From assembly GCA_030390025.1 (NCBI GenBank), contig JASTWF010000337.1:310001-374000 (forward strand): 64,000 nucleotides of DNA, written 5' to 3'. This DNA is from Squalus acanthias. Taxonomy: Eukaryota. This document shows positions 34,515-63,773 of this stretch, piece by piece (position 1 is the first letter of the stretch; the number at the start of each line of letters is the position of its first letter). Below the pieces are notes generated by a model. It was not told where the DNA came from, did not search any database, and was given only the letters and a program-made list of their open reading frames with translations. Position numbers and translations under genes: made by a program.

Positions 34515-34598
34515 TTAACCATCAATATCCCAGCTGAACAGATGATGCTTCACCAACATGTCCTGGACTCCGTCTTTCAGAGGCTTCTTCTCTTTATC
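34515..34598 (-). CDS. SGSM3: SGSM3 terminal coding exon: [27 protein letters not shown]
   Basis: Acceptor ttttttcatcatcag; peptide matches the vertebrate SGSM3 C-terminus as I recall it ([12 protein letters not shown](V/I)DG); TAA at 34517-34515; phase 0. Confidence 0.95.
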
Positions 34599-35160: not shown

Positions 35161-35213
35161 GAGACTCCTCTCTATTGTGTTCGGATACACAGATCTGGAA
35201 TCATCAGGCGTCA

Positions 35214-36452: not shown

Positions 36453-36494
36453 GGGATGAGATACACGGCACCTTCAGCATTCTTTTTTCTTTAC

Positions 36495-36555
36495 CTCTTT
36501 CTTGATGGGAAGCTCCCAGTCCTGAGAAAGGCTAAACGCAAACCTGGACAACACC
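36495..36555 (-). CDS. SGSM3: SGSM3 exon: (R)VLSRFAFSLSQDWELPIKKE
   Basis: tgtgttgcag acceptor, GAG|gtaaag donor; 61 nt, phase 2 to 0; FAFSLSQDWELP motif. Confidence 0.95.
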
Positions 36556-37336: not shown

Positions 37337-37459
37337 CTCAGTTCACACTTGATCTGGACCCAGCCAGGACTGCGTAGGAACGACCAGGGCTGGTACCATT
37401 TCTCCACTGTCTGCATACTCGAACAGAGCACCTCCAGCCACAGCGGCAGAACCTGCTCA
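37337..37459 (-). CDS. SGSM3: SGSM3 RUN-domain exon: (N)[40 protein letters not shown](R)
   Basis: cctttgtgcag acceptor, GAG|gtaagg donor; 123 nt, phase 2 to 2; [24 protein letters not shown] motif. Confidence 0.97.
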
Positions 37460-37935
37460 CTGCACAAAGGCACCATTAGTAATAACCAAACCATGCATTC
37501 ATGCCCTATATCAATTCACATTAATAACATCACAACCCTGACAGGAATGAAGAGGAGCACACCAGGTACCAGAGGGAGTGAGACCCCTGCACACAACAAC
37601 AATCTTGCCAATCGCACTCAGGAAGAACACAGGAAGGCTGCTGTGGGAAATGGAAAACTAACACGCGAGTACAGCAGGAGTGCTCGACTGAGAGATGGAG
37701 CGTTAACCTGCAGATACTGCATAGCTGCAATGGAAAATTGTTCATCCCAAAATATCCCACAACTTGCAGAGTAAAAAAACCAACACAGCCACAAAAAGGC
37801 AAAACCAGCAGCATTTTACAGAATGAGGAACATCACTCACTGCAGTTACCGGGACAGCCCATAACCTGACACAGACTGACCCACAACACAGACCCAGGTT
37901 ATATGGATTTGGGGAGCGTGTGTGAGAGATTTGCG

Positions 37936-38424
37936 GGGCGTGCGAGGGGGATTCGGGGGCGTGCGAGGGGGATTCGGGGGCGTGCGAGGGGGATTCGGGG
38001 GCGTGCGAGGGGGATTCGGGGGCGTGCGAGGGGGATTCGGGGGCGTGCGAGGGGGATTCGGGGGCGTGCGAGGGGGATTCGGGGGCGTGCGAGGGGGATT
38101 CGGGGGCGTGCGAGGGGGATTCGGGGGCGTGCGAGGGGGATTCGGGGGCGTGCGAGGGGGATTCGGGGGCGTGCGAGGGGGATTCGGGGGCGTGCGAGGG
38201 GGATTCGGGGGCGTGCGAGGGGGATTCGGGGGCGTGCGAGGGGGATTCGGGGGCGTGCGAGGGGGATTCGGGGGCGTGCGAGGGGGATTCGGGGGCGTGC
38301 GAGGGGGATTCGGGGGCGTGCGAGGGGGATTCGGGGGCGTGCGAGGGGGACTCCGGGCGTGCGAGGGGGACTCCGGGCGTGCGAGGGGGACTCCGGGCGT
38401 GCGAGGGGGACTCCGGGCGTGCGC
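37936..38424. repeat. G- and CpG-rich 21-bp minisatellite GGGGCGTGCGAGGGGGATTCG (about 19 copies) plus about 4 copies of a 20-bp variant
   Basis: Near-perfect tandem copies read directly. Confidence 0.97.
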
Positions 38425-39184
38425 GTGTCAGAGAGCAGCTGATTTAAGATGTGAGGCGATGCGGATGGTGAAGCAAGATTGTGATTAGCAAAGAGATGAA
38501 CACGACAGATGGACAATAGCATGGAACCAGAATTGGGATTCTAAGCATCGTGGGGTCGTGCTTTCACTTTGGGCGCAATTGGCAATCCCTTCGTCCATTT
38601 TGAGAAATGTTATTTTTCCTCACATTTCCACTCAAAAGTATTTGCATATCACCGAACACAAAATCTGCCATGAACCAGCGCAATCTGGTAGCGTTTTAAA
38701 ACATAATTTAAAAAAAAATCTTCCCTGCTGTATTTAAGAGCGGTAACTGGGTGCAGTTTGATTAATACAGCTAGAAATGGCTTTATCACAAAAAATAAGC
38801 ATTTTTAATCAGTGTTAATCTACCACCTGTGAGTAACACGATTTTAAATGACTCAAAATAACTTTAAAATTATGCAGAACCATTTGTTGGTTTTATTGTG
38901 ATACAGGAGTCAGTTTGTTAGTAAGTTTAAAAAAAAATTATATTCAAAACCTTTTAAAACATGCCTATTCGTGTCCTTGTGCCCCAAAAATCCAGCTTAA
39001 TTTTTGGAGCCTCCTCGAAGAGCTGCAAACAGGCAGTTAGCGGAAACTCCCAACGGTGAATAATTCACCCTGGGGGGTGTGGCCAGTTTTGTGGGCGGGG
39101 CCTGCTTCTAACGTGATGTTTTTAAAACTAGCGCAAAAGATGGCGGAAACGCGCTTTGCGCTGAACGTAATTTGCTCTTAAAAT

Positions 39185-39805
39185 TCAGAGAGTCATTACA
39201 ACACAGAAGGAGGCCACTCGGCCCATCGAGTCCGTGCCGGCTCTCTGTAGAGCAATCCAGTCAGTCCCATTCCCCCGCTCTATCCCCGTAGCCCTGCAAG
39301 TTTATTTCCCTCAAGCGGCTATTCTATTTCCTTTTGAAATCATTGATCGTCTCCGCTACACCACCCTCGTTGGCAGCGAGTTCCAGGTCATTACTACTCG
39401 CTGCGTAAAAAAGTTCTTCCTCACATCCCTCCTGTATCTCTTGCCCAAAACCTTAAATCTGTGTCCCCTAGTCCTTGTACCATCAGCCAATGGGAACAGC
39501 CTTTCTGTGTCTACCTTATCCAAACCCGTCATAATCTTGTACACCTCTATCAAATCTCCCCTCATCCTCCTTTACTAAAGGAGAACGACGCCAGCTTCTC
39601 CAACCTAACCTTGGAGCTAAGATCCCCCATCCCCAGAACCATTCTGGTAAATCTCCTCTGCACCCTCTCAAGGATCTTCACATCCTTCCTAAAGTGTGGT
39701 GACCAGAACTGAACACAATACTCCAGTTGTGGGCTAACCAGAGCTTTATAAAGGTTCAGCATAACTTCCCTGCTTTTGTACTCAATACCTCTATTTATGA
39801 AGCTT
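39185..39805 (-). mobile_element. 5'-truncated CR1/HER1-type LINE 3' end
   Basis: LYKALVSPQLEYCVQFWSPH and RGDLIEVYKIM...TRGH...FFTQRVV CR1 C-terminal motifs. Confidence 0.9.
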
Positions 39806-39982
39806 TTCCTGATAATTTACTTCACAAGAGAAATGTTGCCCTTCTTGGTCCTAATGCCCTGTTTAAGTTGGGGCTGCACTGAGCCCTGAATCACACACCG
39901 AGCACTATTTGTTCCCTGTACAGTATGTCTTGGTCTCAAAGGAACAGGATTATAAAGTCAAGAATTGAAGATTTTCACTTAC

Positions 39983-40068
39983 TTTAGTCCCACACAGATC
40001 AGTGATCGGAATTTCACATCCATCTGTGCATGCGCAGCATCGTGACTCATGTTCACGGACTGGACAGC
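39983..40068 (-). CDS. SGSM3: SGSM3 exon: [28 protein letters not shown](N)
   Basis: cccttctttcag acceptor, AAA|gtaagt donor; 86 nt, phase 0 to 2. Confidence 0.96.
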
Positions 40069-40526
40069 CTGAAAGAAGGGAAGCAAAGTTTGGTGTTGGA
40101 TGGAGTGCACAGCTTCAGAAAGGAGAATGGCTGATCAATCTCATACTCCGGTTTTTAGGGCCTATAATTGGTACAAATATTGCATCTTTATTGGTCCCAT
40201 TATTAGCCACAGTTATAGCTCCTACAACAAAAAAACTGCAAATGTTGGAATCGTGAAACAAAAAGAGAAAATGCTGGAAACACTCAAGTTATCAAGCATC
40301 TGTGGAGAGAGAGAGAGAAAAAGAGAGCTGAATATTTTAGACATGGTCCATCCCTGGAATCGAAGCACAGCTTCCCCTCTCCTCTTTCTGGAGGGTTTGA
40401 TCCCTCCACAAGACTCTTGTCCTCCACCCCAGCTTTTCCGCTGCCGTTCCATTATCATTTTCCTATGGACCTGTAGCAGCTGCAACACCTGTCCATTCAC
40501 CTCCGCCCACACGATCCAGGGCCCCA

Positions 40527-41640
40527 AACAACAACTTGCATTTATATAGTGCCTTTATCACGGTAAAACGTCCCAAGGCGCTTCACAGGAGTGGTGTCAA
40601 ATCTTGTTTGATAATCGAGCCACGTAAGGAGATATTAGGATAGGTGACCAAAAGCTTGGTCAAAGAGGTAGGTTTTAAGGTGCATCTTAAAGGAGGAGAG
40701 AGAGGTAGAGAGGTGGAGAGGTTTAGGGAGGGAATTCCAGAGCTTAGGGTCGAGGCAACTGAAGGCACGGCCACCAATGGTGGAGCGACGAAGATCGGGG
40801 AAGCACAAGAGGCCAGAATTGGAGGAGCGCAGAGATCTCAGAGGGTTGTGGGGCTGGAGGAGATTACAGAGATAGTGAGGGGCGAGGCCATGGAGGGATT
40901 TGAAAACAAGGACGAGAATTTTAAAATCGAGGGGTTGCCAGACCGAGAGCCAATGGAGGTCAGTGAGCACAGGGGTGATGGGTGAATGGGACTTGGTGCG
41001 AATTAGGACTCGGGCAGCCGAGTTTTGGATGAGCTCAAGTTTACGGATGGTGCAAGATGGGAGGCCAGCCAGGAGAGCATTAGAATAGTCAAATCTAGAG
41101 GTAACAAAGGCATGGATGAGGGTTTCAGCAGCAGATGAGCTGAGGCAGGGCGGAGCTGGGCGATGTTACAGAGCTGGAAGTAGGCGGTCTTTGTGATGGG
41201 ACGGATATGTGGTCGGAAACTCATTTCGGGGTCAAATAGGACGCCAAGTTTGCAGTCTGGTTCAGCCTCAGACAGATGTTAGGGAGAGGGATGGAGTCGG
41301 TGGCTAGGGAACGGAGTTTGTGACGGGAACCAAAGACAATGACTTCGGTCTTCACAATATTTAATTGGAAGACATTTCTGCTCATCAAATACTGGATGTC
41401 GGACAAGCAGCAGGACAAATGAGAGGCAGTGGATGGGTCGAAAGAGGCGGTGGCACGGTAGAGCTGGGTGTCGTCAGCGTACATGTGGAACCTAATGTTA
41501 TGTTTTCGGATGACGTCGCCAAGGGGCAGCATGAGGATGAGAAATAGGAGGGGCCAAGGATAGATCCTTGGGGGACTCCAGAGGTAACGGTGCGGGAGCG
41601 TGAAGAGAAGCCGTTGCAGGAGATTCTCTGACTACGACTG
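40527..41640 (-). mobile_element. L2-clade LINE, 5'-truncated
   Basis: GVPQGSILGP, YADDTQLY, LHWL..FKILVLVFKSLHGLAP.YL, WNSLP; 3' tail ...TATATAAATGCAAGTTGTTGT. Confidence 0.92.
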
Positions 41641-48168: not shown

Positions 48169-48217
48169 TCTGTACAGAAGTTCCTCAGGAGTCAGCACCT
48201 TCCCGTCTTCATCCAAC
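48169..48217 (-). CDS. SGSM3: SGSM3 exon: (R)LDEDGKVLTPEELLYR
   Basis: ttcctttttacag acceptor, AGA|gtgagt donor; 49 nt, phase 2 to 0. Confidence 0.96.
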
Positions 48218-48328
48218 CTGTAAAAAGGAACCTTCATTAACCGATGGATTCCGAGCATTCAATTACGGGAAATAACCACCAACTGCACAGTACCTGCTGG
48301 GATTCACCAGCTTGTACAGCACCTGGTA

Positions 48329-49466
48329 CCTCTACATTGCCCCATCAAACACTCCCAGGGCAGGTACAGCATGGGTTAGATACAGAGTAAAGCTCCCTCT
48401 ACACTGTCCTGACAAAGACTCCCAGGGCAGGTACAGCACGGGTTAGATACAGAGTAAAGCTCCCTCTACACTGTCCCATCAAACACTCCCAGGGTAGGTA
48501 CAGCACGAGTTAGATACAAAGTAAAGCTCCCTCTACACTGTCCCATCAAACACTCCCAGGGCAGGTACAGCACGGGTTAGATACAGAGTAAAGCTCTCGC
48601 TACACTGCCCCATCAAACACTCCCAGGGCAAGTACAGCACGGGTTGATACAGAGTAAAGCTCCCTCTACATTGTCCCATCAAATACTCCCAGGGCAGGTA
48701 CAGCACGGGTTAGATACAGAGTAAAGCTCTCGCTACACTGCCCCATCAAACACTCCCAGGGCAAGTACAGCACGGGTTGATACAGAGTAAAGCTCCCTCT
48801 ACATTGTCCCATCAAATACTCCCAGGGCAGGTACAGCACGGGTTAGATACAGAGTAAAGCTCCGTCTACACTGCCCCATCAAACACTCCCAATGCAGGTA
48901 CAGCACGGGTTAGATACAGAGTAAAGCTCCCTCTACACTGTCCCATCAAACACTCCCAGGGCAGGTACAGCATGGGTTAGATACAGAGTAAAGCACCCTC
49001 TACACTGTCCCATCAAATACTCCCAGGGCAAGTATAGCACGGGTTAGATACAGAGTAAAGCTCCCTCTACACTGTCCCATCAAACACTCCCAGGGCAGGT
49101 ACAGCACGAGTTAGATACAGAGTAAAGCTCCCTCTACACTGTCCCATCAAACACTCCCAGGGCAGGTATAACATTGGTTAGATACAGAGTAAAGCTCCCT
49201 CTACACTGTCCCATCAAACACTCCCAGGGCAGGTACAGCACGGGTTAGATACAGAGTAAAGCTCCCTCTACACTGTCCCATCAAACACTCCCAGGGCAGG
49301 TACAGGACGGGTTAGATACAGAGTAAAGCTCCCTCTACACTGTCCCATCAAACACTCCCAGGGCAGGTACAGCACGGGTTAAAGACAGAGTAAAGCTCCC
49401 TCTACAGTGTCCCATCAAACACTCCCAGGGCAGGTACAGCACGGGTTAGATACAGAGTAAAGCGCC
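48329..49466. repeat. 67-bp tandem repeat, left arm (about 17 copies)
   Basis: Unit CCCATCAAACACTCCCAGGGCAGGTACAGCACGGGTTAGATACAGAGTAAAGCTCCCTCTACACTGT. Confidence 0.97.
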
Positions 49467-50007
49467 CGTTAAAATAGTGACCATTTCTAGTTGACCATCT
49501 TCCCATCAGACCCTGCCTGTGTACAGCAAGTTAAAATGTCCTTGTGACGTGCTGGCTCTTGACGTTCAAGCTGAGCTTACAGATAACAGGTTTTCTTTGG
49601 GAACAGACTGAGCTTGTAGCTGCAAGAACCAGACACTTACAGATAATAGATGGATAACAACAAGATACGGTCAGGGACAAGGCCAGTATGTTTGTAATTA
49701 GAGATCGACTTATTGGGTATAATTATAGGACGAGTGGTCAGTGGTTGTTCGAGCTCTCAAGACAATCGGAAGTAGCGCAGCCTAGTGACGGAGGTCGAGC
49801 TAATCACCTTGAAGTCCGCGGGGAAACCAGGTTGTATTAATTGCATGTCATTTAATGTAATTCTGTAGAACAGTTGTATAAGAACAATAATGTTATTAGT
49901 CAATATATATTAAAGCTTGTTGTTTAAAACCATTCGGGCCAGAGTTTTTGTTGCAGGTCTAACAACCCTTTATTGCTACAGTAACCACGGAAAGAAATCC
50001 ACTAACA
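49467..50007 (+). repeat. 5' LTR (541 bp)
   Basis: CGTTAAAATAGTGACC...CACTAACA; by eye 9 substitutions and 2 single-base indels versus the 3' LTR. Confidence 0.95.
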
Positions 50008-50008
50008 C

Positions 50009-50026
50009 TGGCGGCCCTTGGTGGAC
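50009..50026 (+). promoter_or_regulatory. Primer-binding site, tRNA-Asn-like
   Basis: TGGCGGCCCTTGGTGGAC, 1 nt after the LTR; 15/18 match to TGGCGTCCCTGGGTGGGC, the complement of the vertebrate tRNA-Asn 3' end as recalled. Confidence 0.7.
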
Positions 50027-50639
50027 TGGAGTTAAAGGTTTAAAAATAGGCGAACATAAAGGGAAAAGGGGACCAATTGGTTGTGACCGAGTTATTGAAA
50101 GGTAGCCAACCCCTCGAGCATAAACACGTGGAAGGATCGGTAGGGTCGTGCACACCCTTGGTAGGGGAAGCAGAAAACCTAGGCAGTCTGAGTGAAAGTG
50201 AGTGTGAATGTGTGAAAGTTTACTGACCTATGAATGTTTAACAGAGCTAAAAGCAGTTCAACTCTCTGTAGTCTTGTCTTTGATTAAAATGCCTAAAATA
50301 CTTTCAACATTAATGTCTTTTCTACAAGTATATGCTGTTTTAAACTTGCTAATTGTTTTCTCTATGTATGTATACACATGTGGATTATTTTTGAGATGCT
50401 TTGAATCATGTTTTTGGTCTTGAACTGATTTAAAGGGTGTGAATGTTCCTTGGGATCGTGACCAGGGAATACAATGTAAACATTTGGCACTTTGAGTTCC
50501 TAACCCATTACACGGATCAGTATTTCCAAGGAGCATGATAGTGTGAATATCGTTGTTGAGTATGTTCATTTCAATTTAAGATTGTGTGCCTGAACTGGGG
50601 AAAACTTTGTGATTTACATTTTAAGTTAAAGGTACTGGT

Positions 50640-52870
50640 TGGAGCTGCACTCCAGGCAAGTGGAGAGTGTTCCATCACACTCCTGACTTGTGCCTTGTAG
50701 ATGGTGGAAAGGCTTTGGGAGTCAGGAGGTGAGACATTCGCTGCAGAACACCCTGCTCTTGTTGCCACAGTATTTATGTGGCTGGTCCAGTTAAGTTTCT
50801 GGTCAATGGTGACCCCCAGGATGTTGATGGTGGGGGATTCGGCGATGGTAATGCTGTTGAATGTCAAGGGACGGTAGTTAGACTCTCGCTTGTTGGAGAT
50901 AGTCATTGCCTGGCACTTGTGTAGTGCGAATGTTACTTGCCACTTATCAGCCCAAGCCTGAATGTCGTTCAGGTCGTGCTGCATGCGGGCATGGACTGCT
51001 TCATTATGTGAGGAGTTGCGAATGGAACTGAACACTGTGCAATCATCAGCGAACATCCCCACTTCTGACCTTATGATGGAGGGAAGGTCATTGATGAAGC
51101 AGCTGAAGATGGTTGGGCCTGGGACACTGCCCTAAGGAACTCCTGCAGTGATGTCCTGGGGCTGAGATGATTGACCTCCAACAACCACAACCATCTTCCT
51201 TTGTGCTAGGTATGACTCCAGCCAGTGGAGAGTTTTCCCCCTGATTCCATTGACTTGAGTTTTACTAGGGCTCCTTGATGCCACACTCGGTCAAATGCTG
51301 CCTTGTTGTCAAGGGCAGTCACTCTCACCTCACCTCTGGAATTCAGCTCTTTTGTCCATGTTTGGACCAAGGCTGTAATGAGGTTGGGAGCTGAGTGGTC
51401 CTGGCGGAACCCGAACTGAGCATTGGCGAGTAAATGCTGCTTGATGACACTGTCAATGACACCTTCCGTCACTTTGCTGATGATTGAGGGTAGACTCATG
51501 GGGCGGTAGTTGGCTGGGTTGGATTTGTCCTGCCTTTTGTGGACAGGACATACCTGGGAAATTTTCCATTTTGTCAGATAGATGCCAGTGTTGTAGCTGT
51601 ACTCGAACAGCTTGGCTAGAGGCACGGCTAGTTCTGGAGCATAAGTCTTCAGCACGACAGCCGGGATGTGTCGGGGCCCATAGCCTTTGCTGTAGTCAGT
51701 GCACTCAGCCATTTCTTGATATCACGTGGAGTGAATCGAATTGGCTGAAGACTGGCTTCTGTGATGGTGAGGTCCTCAGAAGGAGGCCGATATGGATCAT
51801 CCACTCGGCACTTCTGGCTGAAGATGTTGCAAACGCTTCAGCCTTGTCTTCTGCACTCGCGTGCTGGGCTCCACCATCATTGAGGATGGGGATGTTCATG
51901 GAGCCGCCTCCTCCTCCCGTTAGTTGTTTAATGGTCCACCACCATTCACAACTGGATGTGGCAGGACTGCAGAGCATTGATCTGATCAGCTGATTGCAGG
52001 ATCGCTTAGCTTTGTCTATAGCATGCTGCCTCTGCTGTTTAGCATGCATACAGTCCTGAGTTGCAGCTTCCCCAGGTTGACACCTCATTTTTAGGGACAC
52101 CTGGTGCTGCTCCTGGCATGTTCTTCTGCACTCCTCATTGAACCAGGGCTGGTTCCCTGGCTTGATGATAATGGTAGAGTGAGGGATTTGTGTCAGCCAT
52201 TGCCAAGTTGGCAGCACCCTTGCCTCTGAATCAGAAGGTTGTGGGTTGAAATCCCACTCCAGGGACTTGAGCACAATAATCGAGGCCAACATTCCAGTGC
52301 CATCTTTCGGTGGGACAGGACATACCCAGGGATGGTGATGGAGGAGTCTGGGACACTGGCTGAAAGTTATGATTCTGTGAGTATGACTATGTCAGGCTGT
52401 TGCTTGACTAGTCTGTGGGACAGCTCTCCAAATTTTGGCACAAGTCCCCAGATGTTAGTGAGGAGGACTTTGCAGGGTCGACTGGGCTGGGTGTGCCGTT
52501 GTCGTGTCCGAATCCGGTGCCGAGATTGAAGCCGGGTGGTCCGTCCGGTTTTATGCTTATTATTGTTTTTCATAGTGGTTTTTTACAACTGGGTGGCTCA
52601 TTAGGCCATTTCAGAGGGCAGTTCAGAGTCAACCACATTGCTGTGGGTCTGGAGTCACACAGACCAGATAAGGACGGCAGATTTCCTTCCCATTAGTGAA
52701 CCAGATGGGTTTTTACGACAATCCGATAGTTTCATGGTTACCATTATTGATACTAGCTTTTTATTCCAGATTTATTTAATTAACTGAATTTAAATTCCCC
52801 AGCTGCTGTGGTGGGATTTGAACTCATGTCTCTGGATCATTAGTCCAGGCCTCTGGATTACTAGTCCCGT
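50640..52870 (-). mobile_element. CR1-group LINE (APE and RT relic) with a tRNA/SINE-like 5' head
   Basis: KVLLTNIWGL...PDIVILTES, PWFNEEC, NPANYRPMSL, AAFDRVWH, MFADD; head at about 52600-52870 contains GAGTTCAAATCCC. Confidence 0.85.
52190..52310 (+). mobile_element. tRNA-derived SINE fragment (DeuSINE/SacSINE1-like)
   Basis: GCAGCACCCTTGCCTCTGAATCAGAAGGTTGTGGGTTGAAATCCCACTCCAG; same family as 61445-61595. Confidence 0.7.
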
Positions 52871-52874
52871 AAAC

Positions 52875-53160
52875 ACAGGATTTTTTTTAACTTGTCCCAT
52901 TGCCATCTCCTTTTGCCTGCACCATCATCCCTTTTGTCTCCCAATCTCTCCTGCCTTCCATCCTATCACAGACCATCCCTTTTGTTCTTTCCTCCCCTCC
53001 CCCCTTTCCCTGCCCCTACACTTGCTTAAAAACCTGTTCCATCTCCAACTTTTTCCAGTTCTGACGAAGGGTCATCGACCAGAAACGTCAACTCTGTTTC
53101 TCTCTCCACAGATGCTGCCTGACCTGCTGAGTATATCCACCATTTTCTGTTTTTATTACA
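52875..53160 (+). mobile_element. Penelope-like element terminal fragment
   Basis: Pyrimidine-rich tract, hammerhead motif, then CCACAGATGCTGCCTGACCTGCTGAG tail related to 40236-40340 (inverted) and 47750-47850. Confidence 0.65.
53057..53093 (+). ncRNA. Minimal type I hammerhead ribozyme
   Basis: AGTT-CTGACGA-AG-GGTC(ATC)GACC-A-GAAAC-GTC-AACT: stem I AGTT/AACT, both catalytic boxes, stem II GGTC/GACC, palindromic ACGT stem III, GUC cleavage triplet. Confidence 0.75.
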
Positions 53161-53898
53161 AGTTACAGTTGCTGGTATAGATCAATTTGAATGTCTCCAA
53201 AGCACCTTGTTTTAATTGGATAACAGCTATAAAGATTGCTATCGCTTTATACAGTTTAAATTAAAGATGTGTGGTCTTGTTTTAAATCAATTCGAATGTT
53301 TACAAAGCACTGTTTTCTTCATTTGGTTACTCGAAGTCTGAGACTTGCTATTGTGATTGACTCCGCCCCCACCCAGGTAATCAGTAATCAGAATTTGTAA
53401 ACTGGGCTGAGAGAAAATGCACCAAGTTAATCTATGATGGAATAAAGGAGAGAGGGAAAGATTCTTCCCCTTTTCTACTGTCACAAGCTGCAGGAGATCT
53501 TTTGTTTCCACCGTACTGTCTCGAAGAGCCTGTGTGAATGTTTCAGAGCCCACAAGCTGTGGGAGGTTCCACCATTAACCCTTTTGTGTAGAAATGTTAC
53601 AAAGATTTTGTTTAGATCTGAATACTAATATTTTCTTCAGTTATATTCAGTTTTTAGTCCTTTGAAGAAATAACAAAAAAAATGTAATTTTCTGGGTTTT
53701 GTAAGCATGTGCTATTTTGATATTTTTATCTGTTGTGCAGTATGTTTAGTTAATAAAATATTGGCCTGAATTAAATTGGAACTATTGAGGTTAACTAATC
53801 TATTAAATTGTGAAAACCAGATTTTCATTATGGCCAGTGAAATTCTGATTACTGTAAATTATCTGTGATTCTATGTGGAGGTATCTGATGTGATGAGA

Positions 53899-56848
53899 GG
53901 AAGAGGTAAACGAATATGATATGATTGGGATTACAGAAACATGGCTCCAGGGTGACCAAGGCTGGGAACTCAACATCCAGGGGTATTCAATATTCAGGAA
54001 AGATAGGCAAAAAGGAAAAGGAGGTGGGGTAGCATTGCTGGTTAAAGAGGGGATTAACACAATTGTAAGGAAGGATATTAGCTCTGATGATGTGGAATCT
54101 GTATGGGTAGAACTGAGAAATACCAAGGGGCAGAAAACGTTAGTGGGAGTGGTATACAGACCCCCAAACAGTAATGCGGAGGTTGGGGATGGCATTAAAT
54201 GGGAAATTAGAGAAGCATACAATAATGGTACAGCAGTTATCATGGGTGACTTTAATCTACATATAGATTGGGCTAACTAAATTAGTAACAGTACTGTGGA
54301 GGAGGAATTCCTGGAGTGTATACAGGACAGTTTCCTGGACCAATATGTCGAGGAACCAACTAGAGATCAGGCCATCTTAGACTGGGTATTATGTAACGAG
54401 AAAGGATTAATTAGCAATCTTGTTGTGCGAGGCCCCTTGGGTCGAAGCGATCATAATATGATAGAATTCTTCATTAAAATGGAGAATGAAGTAGTTGACT
54501 CGGAGACTAGGGTCCTGAATTTAAATAAAGGAAACTACGATGGTATGAGGCGCGAGTTGGGTAGGATTGATTGGGGAATGTTACTCAAAGGGCTGACGGT
54601 GGATAGGCAATGGCAAACATTCAAAGATCGCATGGATGAACTGCAGAATTTGTTCATCCCAGTTTGGCATAAAAATAAAACAAAAAAGGTGACTCAACCG
54701 TGGCTAACAAGGGAAATTAGGAATAGCATAAGATCCAAGGAGAGGACATATAAATTGGTCAGAAAAAGCAGTAAACCTGAGGATTGGGAGCAGTTTAGGA
54801 TTCAGCAAAGGAGGACAAAGGGATTAATTAAGAGGGGGAAAATAGAGTATGAGAGTAAACTTGCAGGGAACATAAAAACTGACTGTAAAAGCTTTTATAG
54901 ATATGTGAAGAGAAAAAGATTGGTGAAGTCAAACGTAGGTCCCTTGCAGTCAGAATCAGGGGAATTTATAATGGGGAACAAAGAAATGGCAGACCAATTA
55001 AATACATACTTTGGTTCTGTCTTCACAAAGGAGGACATAAATAACCTCCCAGAGATGTCAGGGAACATAGGGTCTAATGAGAGGGAGGAACTGAAAGAAA
55101 TCAGTATTTGTAGGGAAATGGTGTTAGCGAAATTGACGGGATTGAAGGCCGATAAATCCCCAGGGCCTGATAATCTACATCCTAGGGTACTTAAGGAAGT
55201 GGCTCTAGAAATAGTAGATGCATTGCTGGTCATCTACCAAAATTCGATAGATTCTGGAACGGTACCCATGGATTGGAGGGTAGCTAATGTTACCCCACTA
55301 TTCAAAAAAGGTGGTAGAGAGAAAACGGGGAATTATAGACCGATAAGCCTGACATCGGTAGTGGGGAAAATGCTAGAGTCCATTATAAAAGATGTAATAG
55401 CAGAGCACTTGGAAAACAGTGACAGGATCGGACAAAGTCAACATGGATTTACAAAAAGGTAAATCATGCTTGACTAATCTGCTGGAATTTTTTGAAGATG
55501 TAACTGGTAAAATAGATAAGGGAGAACCAGTGGATGTGGTGTATTTGGACTTTCAGAAGGCTTTCGATAAGGTCCCACATAAGAGATTAGCGTGTAAAGT
55601 TAAGGCACATGGGATTGGGGGCAAGGTATTGACTTGGATAGAGAACTGGTTGGCAGACAGAAGGCAAAGAGTTGGAATAAACGGGTCTTTTTCCGAGTGG
55701 CAGGCAGTGACTAGTGGGGTACCGCAGGGATCGGTCCTAGGACCCCAGCTATTCACAATATATATTAATGATCTAGACGAGGGAACTAGATGTAATATCT
55801 CCAAGTTCGCAGACGACACAAAGCTGGGTGGGCGTGTGTGCTGTGAGGAGGATGCCGAAAAACTCCAGCATGATTTGGACAGGTTGGGTGATTGGGCAGA
55901 ATCATGGCAGATGCATTATAATGTGGATAAATGCGAGGTTATCCACTTTGGTGTCAAAAACGGGAAGGCAGATTATTATCTGAATAGCAATAGATTGGGA
56001 GAAGGGGAAGTGCAACGAGACCTGGGTGTCCTTGTGCACCAGTCGCTGAAGGTAAGCATGCAGGTGCAGCAGGCGGTTAAGAAGGCAAATGGTATGTTGG
56101 CCTTCGTAGCGAGAGGGTTCGAATACAGGAACAAGGATGTCTTGCTGCAGTTGTACAGGGTACTGAGTTTAGATGATCAGCCATGATCTCATCGAATGGC
56201 GGAGCAGGCTCGAGGGGCCGAATGGCCTACTCCTGCTCCTATCTTCTATGTTTCTATGTCTATGTACAGGGCCTTGGTGAGACCACACCTTCAGTATTGT
56301 GTGCAGTTTTGGTCGCCTTATCTGAGGAAGGATGTTCTTGCCATGGAGGGAGTGCAGCGAAGATTCACCAGGCTGATACCTGGGATGGCAGGAATGACGT
56401 ATGAGGAGAGATTGGGTCGATTGGGCTTATACTCGCTGGAGTTTAGAAGAATGAGAGGGGATCTCATTGAAACTTATAAAATTCTAACAGGACTAGACAG
56501 ACTAGATGCAGGAAGGATGTTCCCGATGGTTGGGGAGTCCAGAACCAGGGGTCACAGTCTAGGGATAAGGGGTAAGCCATTTCGGACAGAGATGAGGAGG
56601 AATTTCTTCACCCAGAGAGTGGTGAACCTGTGGAATTCTCTACCACAGAAGGCAGTGAAGGACAATTCAATAAATATATTCAAGAAGGAGTTCGATATAT
56701 TTCTTAAGGCTAAAGGGATCAAGGGATATGGGGAAAAGGCAGGGACAGGGTAATGAATTTGGATGATCAGCCATGATCTCATTGAATGGCAGAGCAGGCT
56801 CGAGGGGCCGAATGGCCTACTCCTGCTCCTATCTTCTATGTTTCTATG
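53899..56848 (+). mobile_element. Relatively well-preserved CR1 LINE ORF2 (APE, RT, 3' tail), 5'-truncated
   Basis: GITETW, GDFN, SDHN, QGSVLGP, FADDTK; open stretches of 388 and 255 aa; TTCTATG tail; possible ATGAGA TSD (53893-98 and 56846-51). Confidence 0.96.
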
Positions 56849-57499
56849 AGACGATCACAGTTCAAAAATTGCTAGTTTTGAATTTCTTAAATGTTTAATG
56901 ATTTGAAGTGGATGAGATGTTAATGTTGAGTGTAATTGACGTGGTTTTGTGCCTTTAAGATTTTGGGACATTTGAGGTGATTCTGCTTGTTTAATCACCT
57001 TGGTTGTATTGGAATGTGATAGCGGTCAGTAGACTGACAGCACCTTTAGATCATGTGACTGACTGGTCAGAAAAAAGTACCGGGAAGAACAAGAATGATT
57101 AAAGGATCTCCTGCTATCTCTATGACACCAATATGGAAAAATCTTGTGGTTGGACACCAAATGCTTTGAAAACAATTGGAGTTTAATTTGGAAAAATAAA
57201 AAGGCTGTCTTTCCTGATGAAAATGTTTTTGAAAAGCTAATAGTGACGTAACTAATGATTTCTGCTGTTTTAACGGATTTTCAAATCCTAATGATGGAAA
57301 ACAAAACGTTCGGTAGGATCTCTGTGCAAGTTTTAAAGGTACAAAGACTTTGGAAAAAAAACAAAATGGAGTTTGGCTCTTTTTCAGTCGGCAAAGTTTA
57401 AAAAAATGTGAAGTAACGCAAGTCCACGCGTCTGACGATATCTTCTGATAAAACATGCAAAGACGTTAACCCTTTCCACCGGCAGCTGTTTTTAATTCA

Positions 57500-58240
57500 C
57501 CAAAACGTCTTTTGTGTTGCTGAATGTAAATATATATCCTGGGCATTATTAAATTTAAAGTTTCTTAATTTAAGTGGGTACGTCGCCATGGTGATAGAAG
57601 GAAATCATGAATTGGCAAATTAACCCGTTGGGCTCTCTTATTTAAGAGCCGCAATGGATTCTCTGTTTTTTTTCAAAAGAGTTTTCTGGACTCTATGAAT
57701 GTTGAGGGCGTAGCAAGGGATCCAGCAGTTTTAAGAATTTAACACCTTATCCGCAGACAGCAGCAGATATCAAATGTCACAGCGTGGCAACGATCTGGAC
57801 TAAGACTTTGCCTTTCCAAAGATTCGGCATTAACCCATTCAGGGTCGTTTGTTATGTTCCAAGACAGAGTGCTTGTGGGTGTTGGTGGGGGCGGGGGGGG
57901 AGGGGGTGGCGAATGTGGGAGTTACCTCCAAAACTAATTGCAAAGCACTTCTGTCTCCAATGTAAAACCACCAAGCCTGGGCATCATTTGTTTCTGAAAT
58001 TGGAACATAGAAGATAAATTGATCTGAGTTGCTGTTACACTCACGCACTCAAGAAGGGAAATTTTACCTGAAGTTTAAGGGGACGATCACATATTTTTTT
58101 TAAAAGAATGCAATCTAGGTGGTTCCTGCCCAGTGCTGTGTATCAAGAAAAAAGATCCTTTGGAGAAATAAAATTGAACATTGACAAGTACTGTCAGTCC
58201 AACAACACTGCTCTTTGGATTTGCGATAATTGTGAAATGA
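57500..58240 (+). pseudogene. Decayed pol relics of the LTR element (RNase H/tether-like, then integrase zinc-finger-like)
   Basis: VFCVAECKY/YILGIIKFKVS*FKWV...IGKLTRWALLF resembles Ty3/gypsy-type RNase H; KRMQSRWFLP...IKLNIDKYCQS...CDNC resembles the integrase HHCC region. By-eye motif similarity only. Confidence 0.45.
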
Positions 58241-58329
58241 CAAAATGGAGTCAGGCACAATATAGCGGGTTATTTTGGAAAATAAAAGGCCCAAGAGACG
58301 GTTCGGTTAAGTAAAATAAACAAACTTGC

Positions 58330-60240
58330 TGTACCTGCATGTTAACTTTCTGTGATTCATGTACAAGTACACTCAGGTCCCTCTGAGTGCAAACATTTCC
58401 CAGTCTCTCACCATTCAAAAAATATTCTGCTTTTTGTCTTTCCTATCAAAGTGGATAACTTGACACTTCCCCACATTGTATTCTATTTGCCATGTTCTTG
58501 CCCACTCAGTCAACCTGTCTATATCTCTCTGCAGTCTCTTTGCATCCTCCTCACAGCTTACTTTACCACCTAACTTTGTATCAGCAGCAAACTTGGATAC
58601 GTTACACTCAGTCCCTTCATCGAAGTCATTAATATAGATTGTAAATAGCTGAGGCCCAAGCACTGATCCCTGTGGCACCCCGCTAGTTACAGCCTGCCAA
58701 CCGGAAAAAGTTCCGTTTATTCCTACTCTGTTTTCTGTCCATTAACCAATCCTCAATCCATGCTAATATATTACTCCCAATCACGAGTCCTAATTTTGTG
58801 TAATAACCTTATCGAATGCTTTTTGAAAATCCAAATACACTACATCAACTGGTTCCCCCTTATCCATCCTACCAGTTACATCTTCAAAAAAATCTAACAG
58901 ATTTGTCAAACATGATTTCCCTTTCTCTGCCTAATCATATTATGATTTCTAAGTGCCCTGTTACCACGTCCCTAATAATAGATTCGAGCATTTTGCCTAC
59001 TACTGATGTCAAGCTAACTGGCCTATAGTTCCCCGTTTTTTCTCTTCCTCCTTTCTTAAATAGCAGGGTTATGTTTGCTACCTTCCAATCCTTGGGGACT
59101 GTTCTAGAATCTAGGGAATTTTGGAAAATTGATACCAATGCATCCACTATTTCTGCAGCTACCTCTTTTAAAATCCTAGGATGCAGGTCGCCAGGTCCAG
59201 GGGATTTGTCGCCACTTAGTACTGGAGAAATTAATGGGACTATGTCTTTACTTATACTGATTTCTTTAAATTCCTCATTCTCTCTAGACCCTTGGTTCCC
59301 CACTATTTCCAGAATGTTTTTTGTGTCTTCTAGCATGAAGTCAGATACAAAGTATTTGTTTAATGTCTCTGCCATTTCCTTATATGCCCATTATAATTTC
59401 TCCTGTCTTTGCCTCTAACGGGCCCACGTTTACTTTAACTAATCTCTTCCTATTTACATACTTATAGAAACGGTTACAATCTGCTTTTATGTCTCTTGCT
59501 AATTTACTCTCATATTCTTTTTTCTCTTTCCTGATCAATTTCTTGGTCCTCCTTTGTTGAATTCTAAAATCCTCCCAATCCTTACTACTCTTTTTGGCAA
59601 CATTATAAGCCTCTTCCTTTGATCTAATACTATCTTTAACTTCACTTGTTAGCCACGGTTGGACCACTTTTCCTGTGGGGCTTTTGTGCCTTAAAGGAAT
59701 GTATATTTGTTGTAAATTATGTATTAATTTTTTAAATGCTAGCCATTGCTCATCTACCGTCATACATTTTAATGTAGTTTCCCAATCTACCTTAGCCAAC
59801 TCGCCCCTCATACCTACGTAGTTTGCTTTGTTTAGATTTAAGACCCTAGTTTCAGAGTTAACTAAATCACTTTCAAACTCAATATAAAATTCTATCATAT
59901 TATGGTCACTCTTCCCTAAGGGCCCCTTTACTACAAGGTTATTAAATAACCCTTTCTCATTGCACAATAGTAGATCTAAAATAGCCTGTTCCCTAGTTGG
60001 TTCCTTAACATACTGATCTAGAAAACTATCTTGTATACATTCCATGAACTCGTCCTCCATACTATTACTGCAAATTTGGTTTGCCCAGTCTATATGTAGA
60101 TTAAAGTCCCTCATGATTACTGTATTACCCTTGTTACATGCGCCTCTAATTTCCTGATTTATACTTTGCCCTACATTACAACTACTGTTTGGGGACCTAT
60201 AAACAACTCCCATCAATGTTTTCTGCCCCTTGCTGTTTGT
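58330..60240 (-). mobile_element. CR1 LINE ORF2 fragments with deletions
   Basis: GKSDHNMIEF, PWLTSEVKDSIR, DKSPGPGDLHPRILKE, PQGSVLGPQLF. Confidence 0.92.
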
Positions 60241-60500
60241 TATGGCACGGATATGTGGTCGGAAGCTCATTTCAGGGTCAAATATGTCACCAAGGTTGTG
60301 AACAGTCTAGTTCAGCCTCAGACAGATGCCAGGGAGAGGGATGGAGTCGGTGGCTAGGGAACGGAGTTTGTGGCGGGGACTGAAGAAAATGGCTTTGGTC
60401 TTCCCAATATTTAATTGGAGAAAATTTCTGCTCATCCAGAACTGGATGTCAGACAAGCAATTTAGAGACAGTGGAGGGGTCAAGAGAGGTGGTGGTGAGG
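60240..60500 (-). mobile_element. L2 LINE internal fragment
   Basis: Homologous to 41200-41450 (GGAGAGGGATGGAGTCGGTGGCTAGGGAACGGAGTTTGTG is shared). Confidence 0.85.
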
Positions 60501-60567
60501 TAATAATGGGTGAATTAGAATCAATCCAAAGGGGTTAGGGAAAAGATGTGTGAGGGCACCCATGAGT

Positions 60568-60715
60568 AACATAACATAAGAACATAAGAAATAGGAGCAG
60601 GAGTAGGCCATTTGGCCCCTCGAGCCTGCTCCACCATTTAATGAGATCATGGCTGATCTGATCTTGGGCTCAGCTCCATTTTCCTGTCCGCTCCCCATAA
60701 CCCATCACTCCCTTA
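60568..60715 (-). mobile_element. Short CR1 3'-tail insertion
   Basis: (AACATAAG) microsatellite tail plus reverse complement of the CR1 3' UTR seen at 56760-56848. Confidence 0.85.
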
Positions 60716-62405
60716 TTTGCAACAAAAAAAAATCTGGGAAAATTCCTCTGCCACCCATCTAGGCGATCGAACCAGGAGATCACTCTGGCCCTTTTGCATA
60801 GACTGCCCCCTTGTCCTGATTCTTATCTCATGGATCAGGAGTTGTGCATGCTTTATGCTGTGGCAATGCTGGTTAGAGGCATCTTGGGACCAAATAAACA
60901 CCAGAAACAATGGGTTTTGATTCAACACCCTCTCTCTTTGCCTTCTCCAAATCGACTGGCTTCCCCTGTAACATACACCTAAAGGTGTGGGTCTCCGCCT
61001 CAACCTCCCTTCTTAGTAACGTGTATAGATTTGTTCTCTGCAAAGAAATAATTGCAGAGGCCTGTCTTAATTATGCCTTTCACAATGCTGAATCTGCACC
61101 CACTTGTGCTGCGATTCTGATATGTTTCAGGTTTTTGGGATCTCTGTATCTAGTCATTGGACAAGGTTTGGAGGCTACCCACCAGAAGGCTTGGAATTTT
61201 GATTTGAATCCAGCTGTTGCTTAAATGGATCAGGTGAAAGCTCCCGAACTACAATTGGATCATTTGACTCCACAAATATCGACTGCATAAATACAGGTGC
61301 AAGAAACCACTTTATCTAAACCATATCTTGTGCTGTAGCAACAATTCCAAACCTCTGCTCACTTGTGTTTGTGATACAGGTGAACACCAGTTTGGAATTG
61401 TTCACAGCAATTAAGTGTACAATGGGTCTCAGAACTAAAATAGTTAGCTGTGGCTCTGTGGGCAGCACTCTCGCCTCCGAGTCAGAAGGCCGCGGGTTCA
61501 AGTCCCACTCCAGAGACCCGAGCACAAAAATCCAGGCTGACACCCCAGTGCAGTGCCGAGGGAGTGTTGCATGGTCAGAGGTGCCCTCTTTCAGGTAACT
61601 TAAATCATCTGGGTACAATTCACCAAGAGTTATCAATCTGGTATCAATGTATATTCTAGTGAAAGCCAGGAAATTGTAAGTGTGACAGGTTAATTGATAG
61701 CTTTCTCCTGGAGATTTTTGTGTCCTTGCCTATACTGAACAATAAGGAAACTGCATTTGAGAGCATGGCCACTATCGAGACATAAGCAAAGACCTCCACA
61801 CCGCACCCCCGATCTTTTAATAAGATAACCTGAAATGTCCAAGAAAGGTTTGCATCTGATGTCACGTGTGGCATGATCTTGGGATGTGTGTGTGCAAATG
61901 TGATAAGTTACATGTGAGGCAACTAGCATGCGGAAATGCTCAGTTACTTGACAATAGCACAACATGAAATGGTTAATGTGGCTCAGGAGAGTGAGAAAAC
62001 CTTTAATCAAGGCACTGACATATGTTTCATAGAGAAACCAACCTTTTTATGAAACAATCAGGATAGAGTTAAACACAGAGGGATTGAAATTGAAGTAAAG
62101 AGGGACATAGAATTTGGATTTACGAAATCCGTGGGTTGGGTTCCTTTGAGTTAACAATGAAATTGGAACAATTGAGGGCTAGGGAGAAATAATACTTTGC
62201 AAGAATTATCCACAAAATGGATAAGGGTAAAGGGAGTGCTGAGAATCTTTGAAGTCCATGATTTCTCGATAATATGGGACACTGTAGCTTTCTGTACAAT
62301 GTATTATGATCTTCTCTGTCTGGATCATGATGTGTAGTATTGGGCAAATGAGACTTGGATTAGTGATCACGTACATGCTGCTTGGACAAGCCCTTAAAAA
62401 CTGAA
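60716..62405 (+). pseudogene. Possible decayed env-like gene of the LTR element
   Basis: Lies just upstream of the PPT; RTRR|SL furin-like site (about 60768-60785), LLEIFVSLPIL, Cys cluster DVTCGMILGCVC, hydrophobic LSVQCIMIFSVWIMMCSIG..LGLVITYMLLG (62288-62390); many stops and frameshifts. Confidence 0.35.
61445..61595 (+). mobile_element. tRNA-derived SINE (DeuSINE/SacSINE1-like), 3'-truncated
   Basis: A-box-like TGGCTCTGTGGG, B box GGGTTCAAGTCCC, then AAAATCCAGGCTGACACCCCAGTGCAGTGCCGAGGGAGTG. Confidence 0.75.
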
Positions 62406-62635
62406 GAGGGAAACAGATCCCGGTTAGAGGAGAGCTCTATCAAATATGCTGTGTAAAGGACGATTACCAACAGCTGAAATAAAAGGGGCTCGTTGGCACA
62501 ATATGTATATGGTACGTTTGTTTGTGTGAATGTAACATCAACCGACTGTAAACTCAAGGTGATCTAAGGTGAGGCCAGAAAGGAAATTCACGGGTAAAAG
62601 TGAAAGTCGACCCAGTGTGGTTCCAACTCAGGTTC

Positions 62636-62647
62636 AAAAGGAGGGAA
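62636..62647 (+). promoter_or_regulatory. Polypurine tract AAAAGGAGGGAA
   Basis: All-purine run directly abutting the 3' LTR. Confidence 0.85.
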
Positions 62648-63186
62648 TATTAGAATAGTGACCATTTCTAGTTGACCATCTTCCCATCAGACCCTGCCTG
62701 TGTACAGCAAGTTAAAATGTCCTTGTGACGTGCTGGCTCTTGACGTTCGAGCTGAGCTTACAGATAACAGGTTTTCTTTGGGAACAGACTGAGCTTGTAG
62801 CTGCAAGAACCAGACACTTACAGATAATAGATGGATAACAACAAGATACGGTCAGGGACAAGGCCAGTATGTTTGTAATTAGAGACCGACTTATTGGGTA
62901 TAATTATAGGACGAGTGGTCAGTGGTTGTTCGAGCTCTCAAGACAATCGGAAGTAGCGCAGCCTAGTGACGGAGGGCGAGCTAATCACCTTGAAGTCCGC
63001 GGGGAAACCAGGTTGTATTAATTGCATGTCATTTAATGTAATACTGTAGAACAGTTGTATAAGAACAATAATGTTATTAGTCAATATATATTAAAGCTTG
63101 TTGTTTAAAACCATTCGGCCAGAGTTTTTGTTGCAGGTCTAACAACCCTTTATTGCTACAGTAACCGCGGAAAAAATCCGCTAACA
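62648..63186 (+). repeat. 3' LTR (539 bp)
   Basis: TATTAGAATAGTGACC...CGCTAACA; the two LTRs imply ancestral termini TGTTAG...CTAACA. Confidence 0.95.
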
Positions 63187-63664
63187 GATCCCTCTACACT
63201 GTCCCATCAAACACTCCCAGGGCAGGTACAGCACGGGGTTAGATACAGAGTAAAGCTCCCTCTACACTGTCCCATCAAACTCTTCCAGGGCAGGTACAGC
63301 ACGGGTTAGATACAGAGTAAAGCTCCCTCTACACTGTCCCATCAAACACTCCCAGGGCAGGTACAGCACGGGTTAGATACAGAGTAAAGCTCCCTCTACA
63401 CTGTCCCATCAAACACTCCCAGGGCAGGTGCAGCACAGGTTAGATACAGAGTAAAGCTCCCTCTACACTGTCCCATCAAACACTCCCAGGTCAGGTACAG
63501 TATGGGTTAGATACAGAGTAAAGCTCCCTCTACACTGTCCCATCAAACACTCCCAGGGCAGGTACAGCATGGGTTAGATACAGAGTAAAGCTCCCTCTAC
63601 ACTGTCCCATCAAACACTCCCAGGGCAGGTACAGCACGGGGTTAGATACAGAGTTAAACTCCCT
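63187..63664. repeat. 67-bp tandem repeat, right arm (about 7 copies)
   Basis: Resumes in register with the unit broken at 49466. Confidence 0.97.
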
Positions 63665-63702
63665 AAAACAAATTCTAACTCGTGAAAAACAGCAGAATGT
63701 AC

Positions 63703-63773
63703 CTGTATGTTTTACACAGCACTAGTCGAGAATACACCGAGTCGAAGTCTCGTTCCACCTCCTTACCAGCAGC
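63703..63773 (-). CDS. SGSM3: SGSM3 exon: [23 protein letters not shown](R); gene continues past the right edge
   Basis: cttatttcatag acceptor, CAG|gtacat donor; 71 nt, phase 0 to 2, joins the 48217 exon in frame. Confidence 0.95.

What the first reader, a model, noticed from the sequence alone, without database searches (positions are those of the whole stretch)
50008..62647. Near-identical LTRs around a ruined, cargo-stuffed interior
Seen: the LTRs differ by about 2% (9 substitutions, 2 indels by eye), yet the element's own coding relics are barely recognisable and it holds at least 8 nested insertions, some themselves decayed. Inference: (a) a non-autonomous LARD-like element mobilised in trans with part of its cargo already aboard, (b) LTR-LTR gene conversion, consistent with both TSD copies and LTR 5' termini being mutated while the LTR body is homogeneous, or (c) a very slow host substitution rate.
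Basis: partly seen in the sequence, partly recalled or inferred. Interest (0 to 1): 0.7.

Follow-up and report, generated by a model that had tools for sequence, protein, structure and literature searches.

The report
Old LTR element, self-homogenised repeats
This is an old, dead retrovirus-like element in an intron of a shark or ray gene, whose two end repeats most likely look young only because they have copied over each other, a known effect that makes such elements seem far more recent than they are.

Summary
Two ~540-bp LTRs (49467-50007, 62648-63186) differ by 9 substitutions and 2 indels. They enclose 12.6 kb: about 4.7 kb of the element's own sequence and 9 LINE/SINE pieces. The element sits in a 67-bp satellite, inside a 15.5-kb intron of a RUN-domain gene on the opposite strand, in a cartilaginous fish. 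No search recognised any gag, pol or env relic.

The best explanation is LTR-to-LTR homogenisation (gene conversion) of an old insertion:
- 6 of 11 LTR differences lie in the outer 27 of 541 columns (corrected p=2.5e-4), and both TSD copies are mutated.
- Public contigs show the interior is a multi-copy family, but this copy assembles as long single-locus contigs. That implies roughly 5-10% divergence per lineage and no near-identical sibling, against 0.4% for the LTR body.
- One nested LINE is about 5% decayed.

Recent trans-mobilisation with cargo aboard is not supported. A slow clock alone cannot separate LTRs from interior. The conversion itself is inferred: no ortholog or family LTR tree could be built. 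The process is well documented in plants and humans. Interest is modest.

The parts
49467..50007 (+). 5' LTR (541 bp)
   Evidence: 98.3% identical to the 3' LTR; ends TAACA; first base departs from TG
62648..63186 (+). 3' LTR (539 bp)
   Evidence: second base departs from TG; both forms of the 63116 indel site are present in public contigs
49462..49466 (+). Left target-site duplication (5 bp, one mismatch to the satellite unit)
   Evidence: register of the 67-bp unit
63187..63191 (+). Right target-site duplication (5 bp, a different single mismatch)
50009..50026 (+). Putative primer binding site, starts TGG one base after the LTR
   Evidence: sequence; likeness to a tRNA-Asn primer site is recalled, not tested
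62636..62647 (+). Polypurine tract (12 purines) abutting the 3' LTR
   Evidence: sequence
50008..50636 (+). Element's own interior, piece 1 (leader, T-rich)
   Evidence: low depth against LINE bins; family contigs differ at many sites
53158..53883 (+). Own interior, piece 2
   Evidence: single-locus contig 53284-53720
56851..58326 (+). Own interior, piece 3; faint gag-matrix-like look by eye only
   Evidence: single-locus contigs 56968-57280 and 57255-57988; no protein hit
60661..61444 (+). Own interior, piece 4
   Evidence: single-locus contig 61090-61475; organism B contig 60776-61017 with 4 differences in 242; no protein hit
61597..62647 (+). Own interior, piece 5
   Evidence: single-locus contig 62281-62697 crossing into the 3' LTR; no protein hit
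50637..52867 (-). Nested LINE-B: RT-bearing LINE, 3' end lost, internal deletions, frameshifts, about 5% decayed
   Evidence: Pfam RVT_1; relatives named from a ray and a catshark; loose ends at 50651, 50752, 52867; 9 of 88 residues private
52191..52308 (+). Nested SINE-like insert inside LINE-B (second level)
   Evidence: 79.8% to 61458-61551; interrupts the LINE frame
52895..53157 (+). Nested 3'-tail fragment of a high-copy retroelement
   Evidence: 76% to 40254-40318; depth about 1e6 and loose ends at 53157
53884..56850 (+). Nested CR1-type LINE, 5'-truncated, young (1 stop, 1 frameshift in about 916 codons)
   Evidence: Pfam Exo_endo_phos and RVT_1; frames; the label CR1 is recalled
56153..56263 (+). 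Nested LINE 3' tail inside the CR1-type LINE (111 bases including one copy of a short direct repeat)
   Evidence: 95% to 56745-56848; family contigs skip 111 bases here
58327..60238 (-). Nested CR1-type LINE, no stop in 539 codons tested, several frame-breaking indels
   Evidence: 71.6% to 54118-56071; Pfam
60239..60500 (.). Nested LINE fragment
   Evidence: 83% to 41190-41453
60569..60660 (-). Nested LINE 3' tail
   Evidence: 89% to 56175-56265
61445..61596 (+). Nested SINE-like insert
   Evidence: its left junction lies on a contig of single-locus depth
48329..49466 (+). 67-bp satellite, left arm (17 copies)
   Evidence: units average 2.9% from their majority unit
63187..63664 (+). 67-bp satellite, right arm (7 copies)
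63703..63773 (-). Host gene exon upstream of the intron that holds the element
   Evidence: AG/GT borders, phase joins the 48169-48217 exon; gene name SGSM3 is recalled
48169..48217 (-). Host gene exon downstream of that intron (intron 48218-63702, 15.5 kb)
   Evidence: a further exon near 37336-37452 hits Pfam RUN, E=1.7e-10

Best explanation
An LTR retroelement integrated long ago into a 67-bp satellite in an intron of a RUN-domain gene, antisense to the gene. Shown: LTR pair, TSD, polypurine tract, intron position. It then decayed neutrally by roughly 5-10% and took up LINE and SINE insertions one after another over a long time. Shown: insert ages differ, from about 5% to about 1%. Inferred: the interior's distance from its family. 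Its two LTRs, 13.2 kb apart, were repeatedly made alike by non-crossover homologous repair using each other as template, or by paired unequal exchanges, which give the same result (inferred). Such tracts need homology on both sides and so spare the LTR termini and the TSD, which keep the older mutation load. A crossover would have left a solo LTR, so only non-crossover histories survive as a full element. The flanking satellite was probably homogenised by its own concerted evolution (inferred).
For: (1) 6 of 11 LTR differences lie within 20 bases of an end; scan-corrected p=2.5e-4, and 0.014 if the first two are dropped for boundary doubt. The body has 4 substitutions in 513 columns (0.8%), the ends 5 in 26. 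(2) Both TSD copies are mutated: p=0.003 at the age the whole LTR pair implies. (3) Family contigs cover the own interior (14-36 contigs at many sites; summed depth up to 16,000 against about 12 for one locus), and at many listed sites nearly all of them carry another letter than the window. This copy itself assembles as 5 contigs of 312-733 letters with 0-3 other letters and depth 10.9-13 in run X1. In a star-family simulation such long private contigs never arose at 2% or less per lineage (0 of 150 runs for each of N=1, 5, 20, 100). The best fit was about 5% (one relative) to about 10% (20-100 relatives). At 10% pairwise, 9 or fewer substitutions in 539 has p=7e-15. (4) LINE-B, which is younger than its host, has 9 private residues in 88 columns against two outside relatives, about 5% at DNA level; p=3e-5 at the LTR-implied age. 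(5) The same anomaly is common in plants: 25% of 4126 nested pairs had the inner element looking older, and intra-element conversion exceeded inter-element conversion (PMC7251063).
Against: The direct signature, derived states shared by both LTRs against a family or ortholog tree, was not obtained. The contig argument rests on 32 of 648,955 listed pieces and on a simplified model of the assembler. If half of all shared runs failed to break contigs, the simulation no longer excluded a young copy (19-37% of runs matched at 0.85%), although such contigs should then exceed single-locus depth, which they do not. The LTRs keep more CpG (observed/expected 0.67-0.74) than 4 of 5 interior pieces (0.24-0.45; the fifth 0.64) and the LINEs (0.32-0.45), as a young LTR would. 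The two CR1-type inserts are young enough to fit the LTR age (1 stop in about 916 codons, 0 in 539). The satellite units are only 2.9% from their majority unit, less than the interior estimate, so satellite homogenisation must be added. LINE-B's private residues may include change in the active lineage, and its two references are fragments inside mispredicted genes. Reverse-transcription errors at template ends can also give terminal LTR mismatches (recalled), though not TSD changes.
Confidence: 0.62

Rival explanations
1. Non-autonomous, LARD-like copy mobilised in trans fairly recently (about 0.8% per lineage) from an already decayed donor, with the older cargo (LINE-B and its SINE) aboard; only the young CR1-type inserts came later.
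For: The interior is multi-copy and has no recognisable ORF. The LTRs are CpG-rich. The two CR1-type LINEs fit a 1% age. PBS-like site and polypurine tract are still in place.
Against: A donor or sibling 98% identical would double the depth or shatter the contigs, but five long contigs have single-locus depth, one of them across the SINE junction at 61445 (simulation). It needs the donor lost from the sampled individuals (the five long contigs are listed for sample S1, one of them also for S2). It does not explain the terminal clustering or the two TSD changes.
Confidence: 0.13
2. Ordinary ageing under a slow clock: the LTR distance is a fair date (about 38 My at the 2.2e-10 per year assumed for elephant shark), long enough for nine insertions, and the family was already diverse and non-coding when this copy landed.
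For: Shark rates are low: 7e-10 per generation in epaulette shark (PMC10587355); LTR distances of 2.4-3.3% were read as 54-75 My (PMC4422223); conversion to years. A probable ortholog piece in organism B differs by 4 of 242 (1.7%), no more than the whole-LTR distance.
Against: One clock acts on LTRs, TSD, interior and inserts alike. It cannot give 5% decay in a nested LINE, 2 changes in 10 TSD bases, or end-clustered LTR differences.
Confidence: 0.1
3. Both LTR bodies were overwritten from a third, younger LTR elsewhere in the genome (inter-element conversion, possibly cDNA-templated), not from each other.
For: It would explain high CpG in the LTR bodies together with old ends. Inter-locus LTR conversion is reported for human ERVs (as cited in the Discussion of PMC7251063).
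Against: It needs two events from like donors. Depth at LTR position 63116 is only 30.8 in X1 (about 2.5 loci) and 64.8 at 62976, so no abundant near-identical LTR family shows there. Intra-element conversion is the commoner kind in plants.
Confidence: 0.1
4. Assembly artefact: collapse or polishing made two more divergent LTRs look alike except at their anchored ends.
For: It would give the same end-clustered pattern (inference). The window's letter at 62976 was seen in no laid contig, and the contig entering the 3' LTR has 2 unlisted differences.
Against: Both forms of the 63116 indel site are present in runs X1 and X5. A contig runs 50 bases into the 3' LTR with only 2 differences in 417. 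No long, divergent private LTR contig is among the longest pieces listed for X1, X3 or X5.
Confidence: 0.05

Closest known systems
Intra-element LTR gene conversion (PMC7251063, 15 plant genomes; Cossu et al. 2017 and Trombetta et al. 2016 as cited there)
   Same: Host LTR pair looks younger than what is nested in it; uneven divergence along the LTR; TSD present, so not a recombinant of two elements.
   Different: Here the host is a cartilaginous fish, the nested clocks are LINEs and not LTR elements, and the gap is large (about 0.4% against 5-10% per lineage). The conversion was inferred from end clustering and contig structure, not from a tract-detection program or a tree.
LARDs, large non-autonomous LTR retrotransposon derivatives (definition recalled)
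   Same: Long interior with no recognisable ORF, paired LTRs, PBS-like site, polypurine tract, multi-copy interior.
   Different: No near-identical siblings were seen, and the lack of ORFs may be decay and not design. Conserved interior structure was not tested.
Chondrichthyan ERVs (CmiERV lineages I-III, PMC4422223) and fish Ty3/Gypsy groups Sushi and rGmr1 (LTR end motifs in PMC3601003)
   Same: LTR ends fit the general integrase motif TGTTRNR...YNYAACA at 6 of 7 bases at each of the four ends. CmiERV LTR pairs are similarly close (2.4-3.3%).
   Different: No pol, env or gag homology was found, so it cannot be placed in either group. The own interior is only about 4.7 kb.

Membership tests
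LTR retroelement (broad) | Paired direct LTRs | tested here: met
LTR retroelement (broad) | TG...CA termini with short inverted repeat | tested here: inconclusive
   Both 3' ends TAACA; each 5' end has one base off TG, at different places
LTR retroelement (broad) | 4-6 bp target-site duplication | tested here: met
   5 bp in satellite register, one mismatch in each copy
LTR retroelement (broad) | Polypurine tract before the 3' LTR | tested here: met
   62636-62647
LTR retroelement (broad) | PBS complementary to a host tRNA 3' end | tested here: inconclusive
   TGG start 1 base after the LTR; two papers' supplements gave no matching reference; the tRNA-Asn likeness is recalled
Endogenous retrovirus (Retroviridae) | Retroviral pol with downstream env homolog | tested here: not met
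   No hit; decay and frameshifts may hide it, and only 3 readings went to the large protein collections
Ty3/Gypsy (Metaviridae) | gag-PR-RT-RH-IN domains in order | tested here: not met
   No Pfam retroelement domain in 24 readings of the own interior
LARD | Interior over 4 kb without coding capacity | tested here: inconclusive
   About 4.7 kb, longest stop-free frames 95-132 aa, marginal against shuffles (P 0.035-0.115); may be a decayed coding region
LARD | Multi-copy family with shared interior | tested here: met
   14-36 family contigs at many interior sites, also in organism B
LARD | Recent mobilisation shown by near-identical copies with other flanks | tested here: not met
   Single-locus long contigs
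LARD | Conserved interior RNA structure | not tested
   No full-length paralogs in hand
Intra-element LTR gene conversion | LTR pair younger than nested or interior clocks | tested here: met
Intra-element LTR gene conversion | Uneven divergence along the LTR, ends spared | tested here: met
Intra-element LTR gene conversion | 5' and 3' LTRs group within species in an ortholog tree, or share derived states against the family | not testable with these tools
   No genome held; one search lists only 40 of 1,287 variant rows

The most novel reading that the evidence does not exclude
The element is a very old fossil, over 200 My if the interior's 5% or more is all post-insertion and the assumed 2.2e-10 per year rate holds. 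LINE-B's even three-way decay against a ray and a catshark copy (9, 11 and 10 private residues of 88) fits that. Its LTRs would then have been held above 98% identity by recurrent conversion. LTR dating of shark and ray retroelements would then run about tenfold too young at some loci, and this single-copy gene intron would give a directly traceable test across species.
Probability: 0.2. Interest if true: 0.55.

Novelty: new member of a known kind. Interest (0 to 1): 0.3.

Why it matters
LTR-LTR distance is the standard clock for retroelement insertions and has been used to date shark ERVs at 54-75 My (PMC4422223). A locus where that clock reads about ten times younger than the interior is a caution for chondrichthyan paleovirology. 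Because it lies in an intron of a recognisable single gene, it can be followed across species to measure the conversion rate in a slowly mutating lineage. The process itself is known, so the gain is a test case, not a new mechanism. One literature search for gene conversion + LTR + shark + retrotransposon (15 of 29 papers listed, titles and abstract starts only) showed no paper on this in sharks; that is a thin search.

Tried and rejected
Own genome: none held. Rfam over 30000-64000: 0 matches at E up to 0.5. Protein identity of the interior: Pfam (only sub-threshold, unrelated families), phmmer on 1.84 billion representatives, two word-index searches, PDB (one unrelated hit at E=0.093), viral contigs: nothing. 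No language-model atlas result was obtained for the interior. A gag-matrix-like look at 57100-57250 and an env-like Cys motif near 61850-61900 are impressions by eye and are not claimed. Metagenome scans: LTR motif 0 hits; interior motif 3 hits, all 23-28 base chance matches. Earlier findings of this scan: none. The joints table shows 15 of 5,908 rows, all within LINEs, so it says nothing on copies lacking the inserts. Stop-codon dating of the two CR1-type inserts did not show them older than the LTRs. A BLASTP of a single LINE-B frame against P0001 was uninformative because of frameshifts. PBS assignment from papers failed: the published newt PBS does not match, and the errantivirus tables gave no Asn entry among the places shown. 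Segmental duplication was rejected: the flanks of the two LTRs are unrelated.
Full report
Setting. The window is from a cartilaginous fish: the relatives of a nested LINE are named from Mobula birostris and Scyliorhinus torazame (2 of 3 hits). No whole genome is held. The element lies in a 67-bp satellite (48329-49467 and 63189-63664). That satellite is inside a 15.5-kb intron (48218-63702) of a gene on the minus strand. The exons at 63703-63773 and 48169-48217 have AG/GT borders and join in phase, and a further exon near 37336-37452 hits Pfam RUN at E=1.7e-10. The name SGSM3 is my recall.

Observation. The LTRs are 49467-50007 and 62648-63186, with 9 substitutions and 2 one-base indels. Both end in TAACA, and each 5' end has one base off TG. 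The 5-bp TSD copies each differ from the satellite unit at a different base. A TGG-starting PBS-like site follows the 5' LTR, and 12 purines precede the 3' LTR. The 12,640-base interior holds about 4.7 kb of own sequence in five main pieces (4,662 bases) and nine inserts, two of them nested at second level. No search recognised a protein in the own interior, so the element can be filed neither as an ERV nor as a Gypsy element.

Clock 1, along the LTR. The distances of the 11 differences from the nearer LTR end are 0, 1, 5, 6, 13, 20, 71, 101, 145, 212 and 238. Against uniform placement, corrected for the choice of window, p=2.5e-4; it is 2e-4 for substitutions only and 0.014 without the first two. 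The body differs at 4 of 513 columns (95% interval 0.2-2.0%), the ends at 5 of 26 (7-39%, biased upward by how the ends were chosen). Two TSD changes in 10 bases have p=0.003 at the whole-LTR age and 0.03 at the satellite's 2.9%.

Clock 2, the interior against its family. Five runs of one organism (two samples) hold 52-65% of the sampled words of 60660-62900. I laid four runs (X1, X3, X5 and X7 of a second organism) on 50008-63200 at 80% likeness. LINE bins reach depths of 1e5-5e6. The five bins wholly within own sequence or LTR reach 220-2,800 in the first organism, with peaks of 5,000-16,000, against about 12 for single loci in X1. At many listed interior sites nearly all family contigs (up to 36) carry another letter than the window, and X7 agrees with them, so the family is shared by both organisms. 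This copy itself appears as five contigs of 312-733 letters with 0-3 other letters and depth 10.9-13. One crosses the SINE junction at 61445 and one enters the 3' LTR. A contig stays unbroken only where no 30-mer is shared with another copy. Simulation of a star family put the best fit at about 5% per lineage with one relative and 9-10% with 20-100 relatives, and gave 0 of 150 runs at 2% or less. Limits: the tables show 40 of 1,287 variant rows, 15 of 5,908 joints and 32 of 648,955 pieces. A version in which half the shared runs do not break contigs loses the bound, though such contigs should be deeper than one locus.

Clock 3, the inserts. LINE-B has lost its 3' end and carries internal deletions and frameshifts. 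In 88 aligned columns it has 9 private residues against 11 and 10 for the two outside copies, which corresponds to about 5% DNA change; p=3e-5 at the LTR-implied age. The plus-strand CR1-type LINE has 1 stop and 1 frameshift in about 916 codons, and the minus-strand one has no stop in 539 codons, so both may be young. The inserts thus arrived at different times, and at least one looks older than the LTR pair, which is impossible without homogenisation or an older donor.

Mechanism. The simplest account is an old insertion whose LTRs have been repaired from each other without crossover. Tracts need homology on both sides, so the termini and TSD are left out, and crossovers would have removed the element. 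Paired unequal exchanges give the same result and cannot be told apart. All of this is inferred. The observations against it are the high CpG of the LTRs, the satellite at only 2.9%, and the young CR1-type inserts. A piece in organism B at 4 differences in 242 (depth 2.1) is probably the ortholog. It is neutral evidence, as it does not exceed the whole-LTR distance.

Rivals. Recent mobilisation with cargo needs a near-identical donor that the contigs do not show (0.13). A slow clock stretches dates, to 38 My for the LTR pair at the rate assumed in PMC4422223, but acts on all parts alike (0.10). Overwriting from a third LTR (0.10) and assembly artefact (0.05) are less likely, because both forms of the 63116 site are present and LTR depth there is only about 2.5 loci in X1.

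Unexplained. The contig entering the 3' LTR ends at 62697 in three runs, 14 bases beyond where the window's LTR differences predict, and has two unlisted differences. The window's letter at 62976 was in no laid contig. Depth peaks at 57557, 58006 and 62216 may be conserved parts of the family or separate small repeats.

Literature seen. PMC7251063: passages and the whole Discussion. PMC4422223: part 1 of 2 of the text. PMC10587355, PMC5210030, PMC3601003: passages. PMC5512871 and PMC13524379: passages and supplement searches. Other papers: search listings only. The LARD definition, the labels CR1 and SINE, the tRNA-Asn likeness, the template-end error mechanism and the gene name are recalled.

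Verdict. A real feature and a clear example of a known process in an unnamed element family. New member of a known kind; interest 0.3.

Noticed in passing
window 34500-63773, minus strand: A RUN-domain gene (SGSM3-like, name recalled) runs across the window: exons at 63703-63773, 48169-48217, one within 39800-41200, about 37336-37452 (Pfam RUN), near 36540 and a last one near 34560. Its introns hold several minisatellites and LINEs.
   Followed up: partly
window 10-30118: 30-kb array of a 19-bp unit, about 1,586 copies, 90% matches, starting about 4 kb past the gene's last coding exon; no copy of the unit elsewhere in the window at 3 mismatches.
   Followed up: no
window 34812-38423: Further tandem arrays: 22-bp x 9 (34968-35158), 40-bp x 31 (35214-36456), 21-bp x 25 (37905-38423), 96-97% matches; the region is rich in homogeneous arrays.
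   Followed up: no
window 56153-56271: A LINE 3' tail inserted into the RT frame of a CR1-type LINE, 95% identical to that LINE's own 3' end and flanked by a 9-base direct repeat.
   Followed up: partly
window 52590-52867: The 5' end of LINE-B looks like a tRNA-derived SINE head fused to the LINE (recalled likeness); family contigs continue about 30 bases further.
   Followed up: no
window about 39090-39170: GC-box-like and AAGATGGCGG motifs, typical of housekeeping promoters (recalled), inside an intron of the RUN-domain gene.
   Followed up: no
window 62180-62270, 57557, 58006: Short interior stretches with summed contig depth 5,000-16,000, far above their neighbours: either a very high-copy conserved part of the family or separate small repeats.
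   Followed up: no
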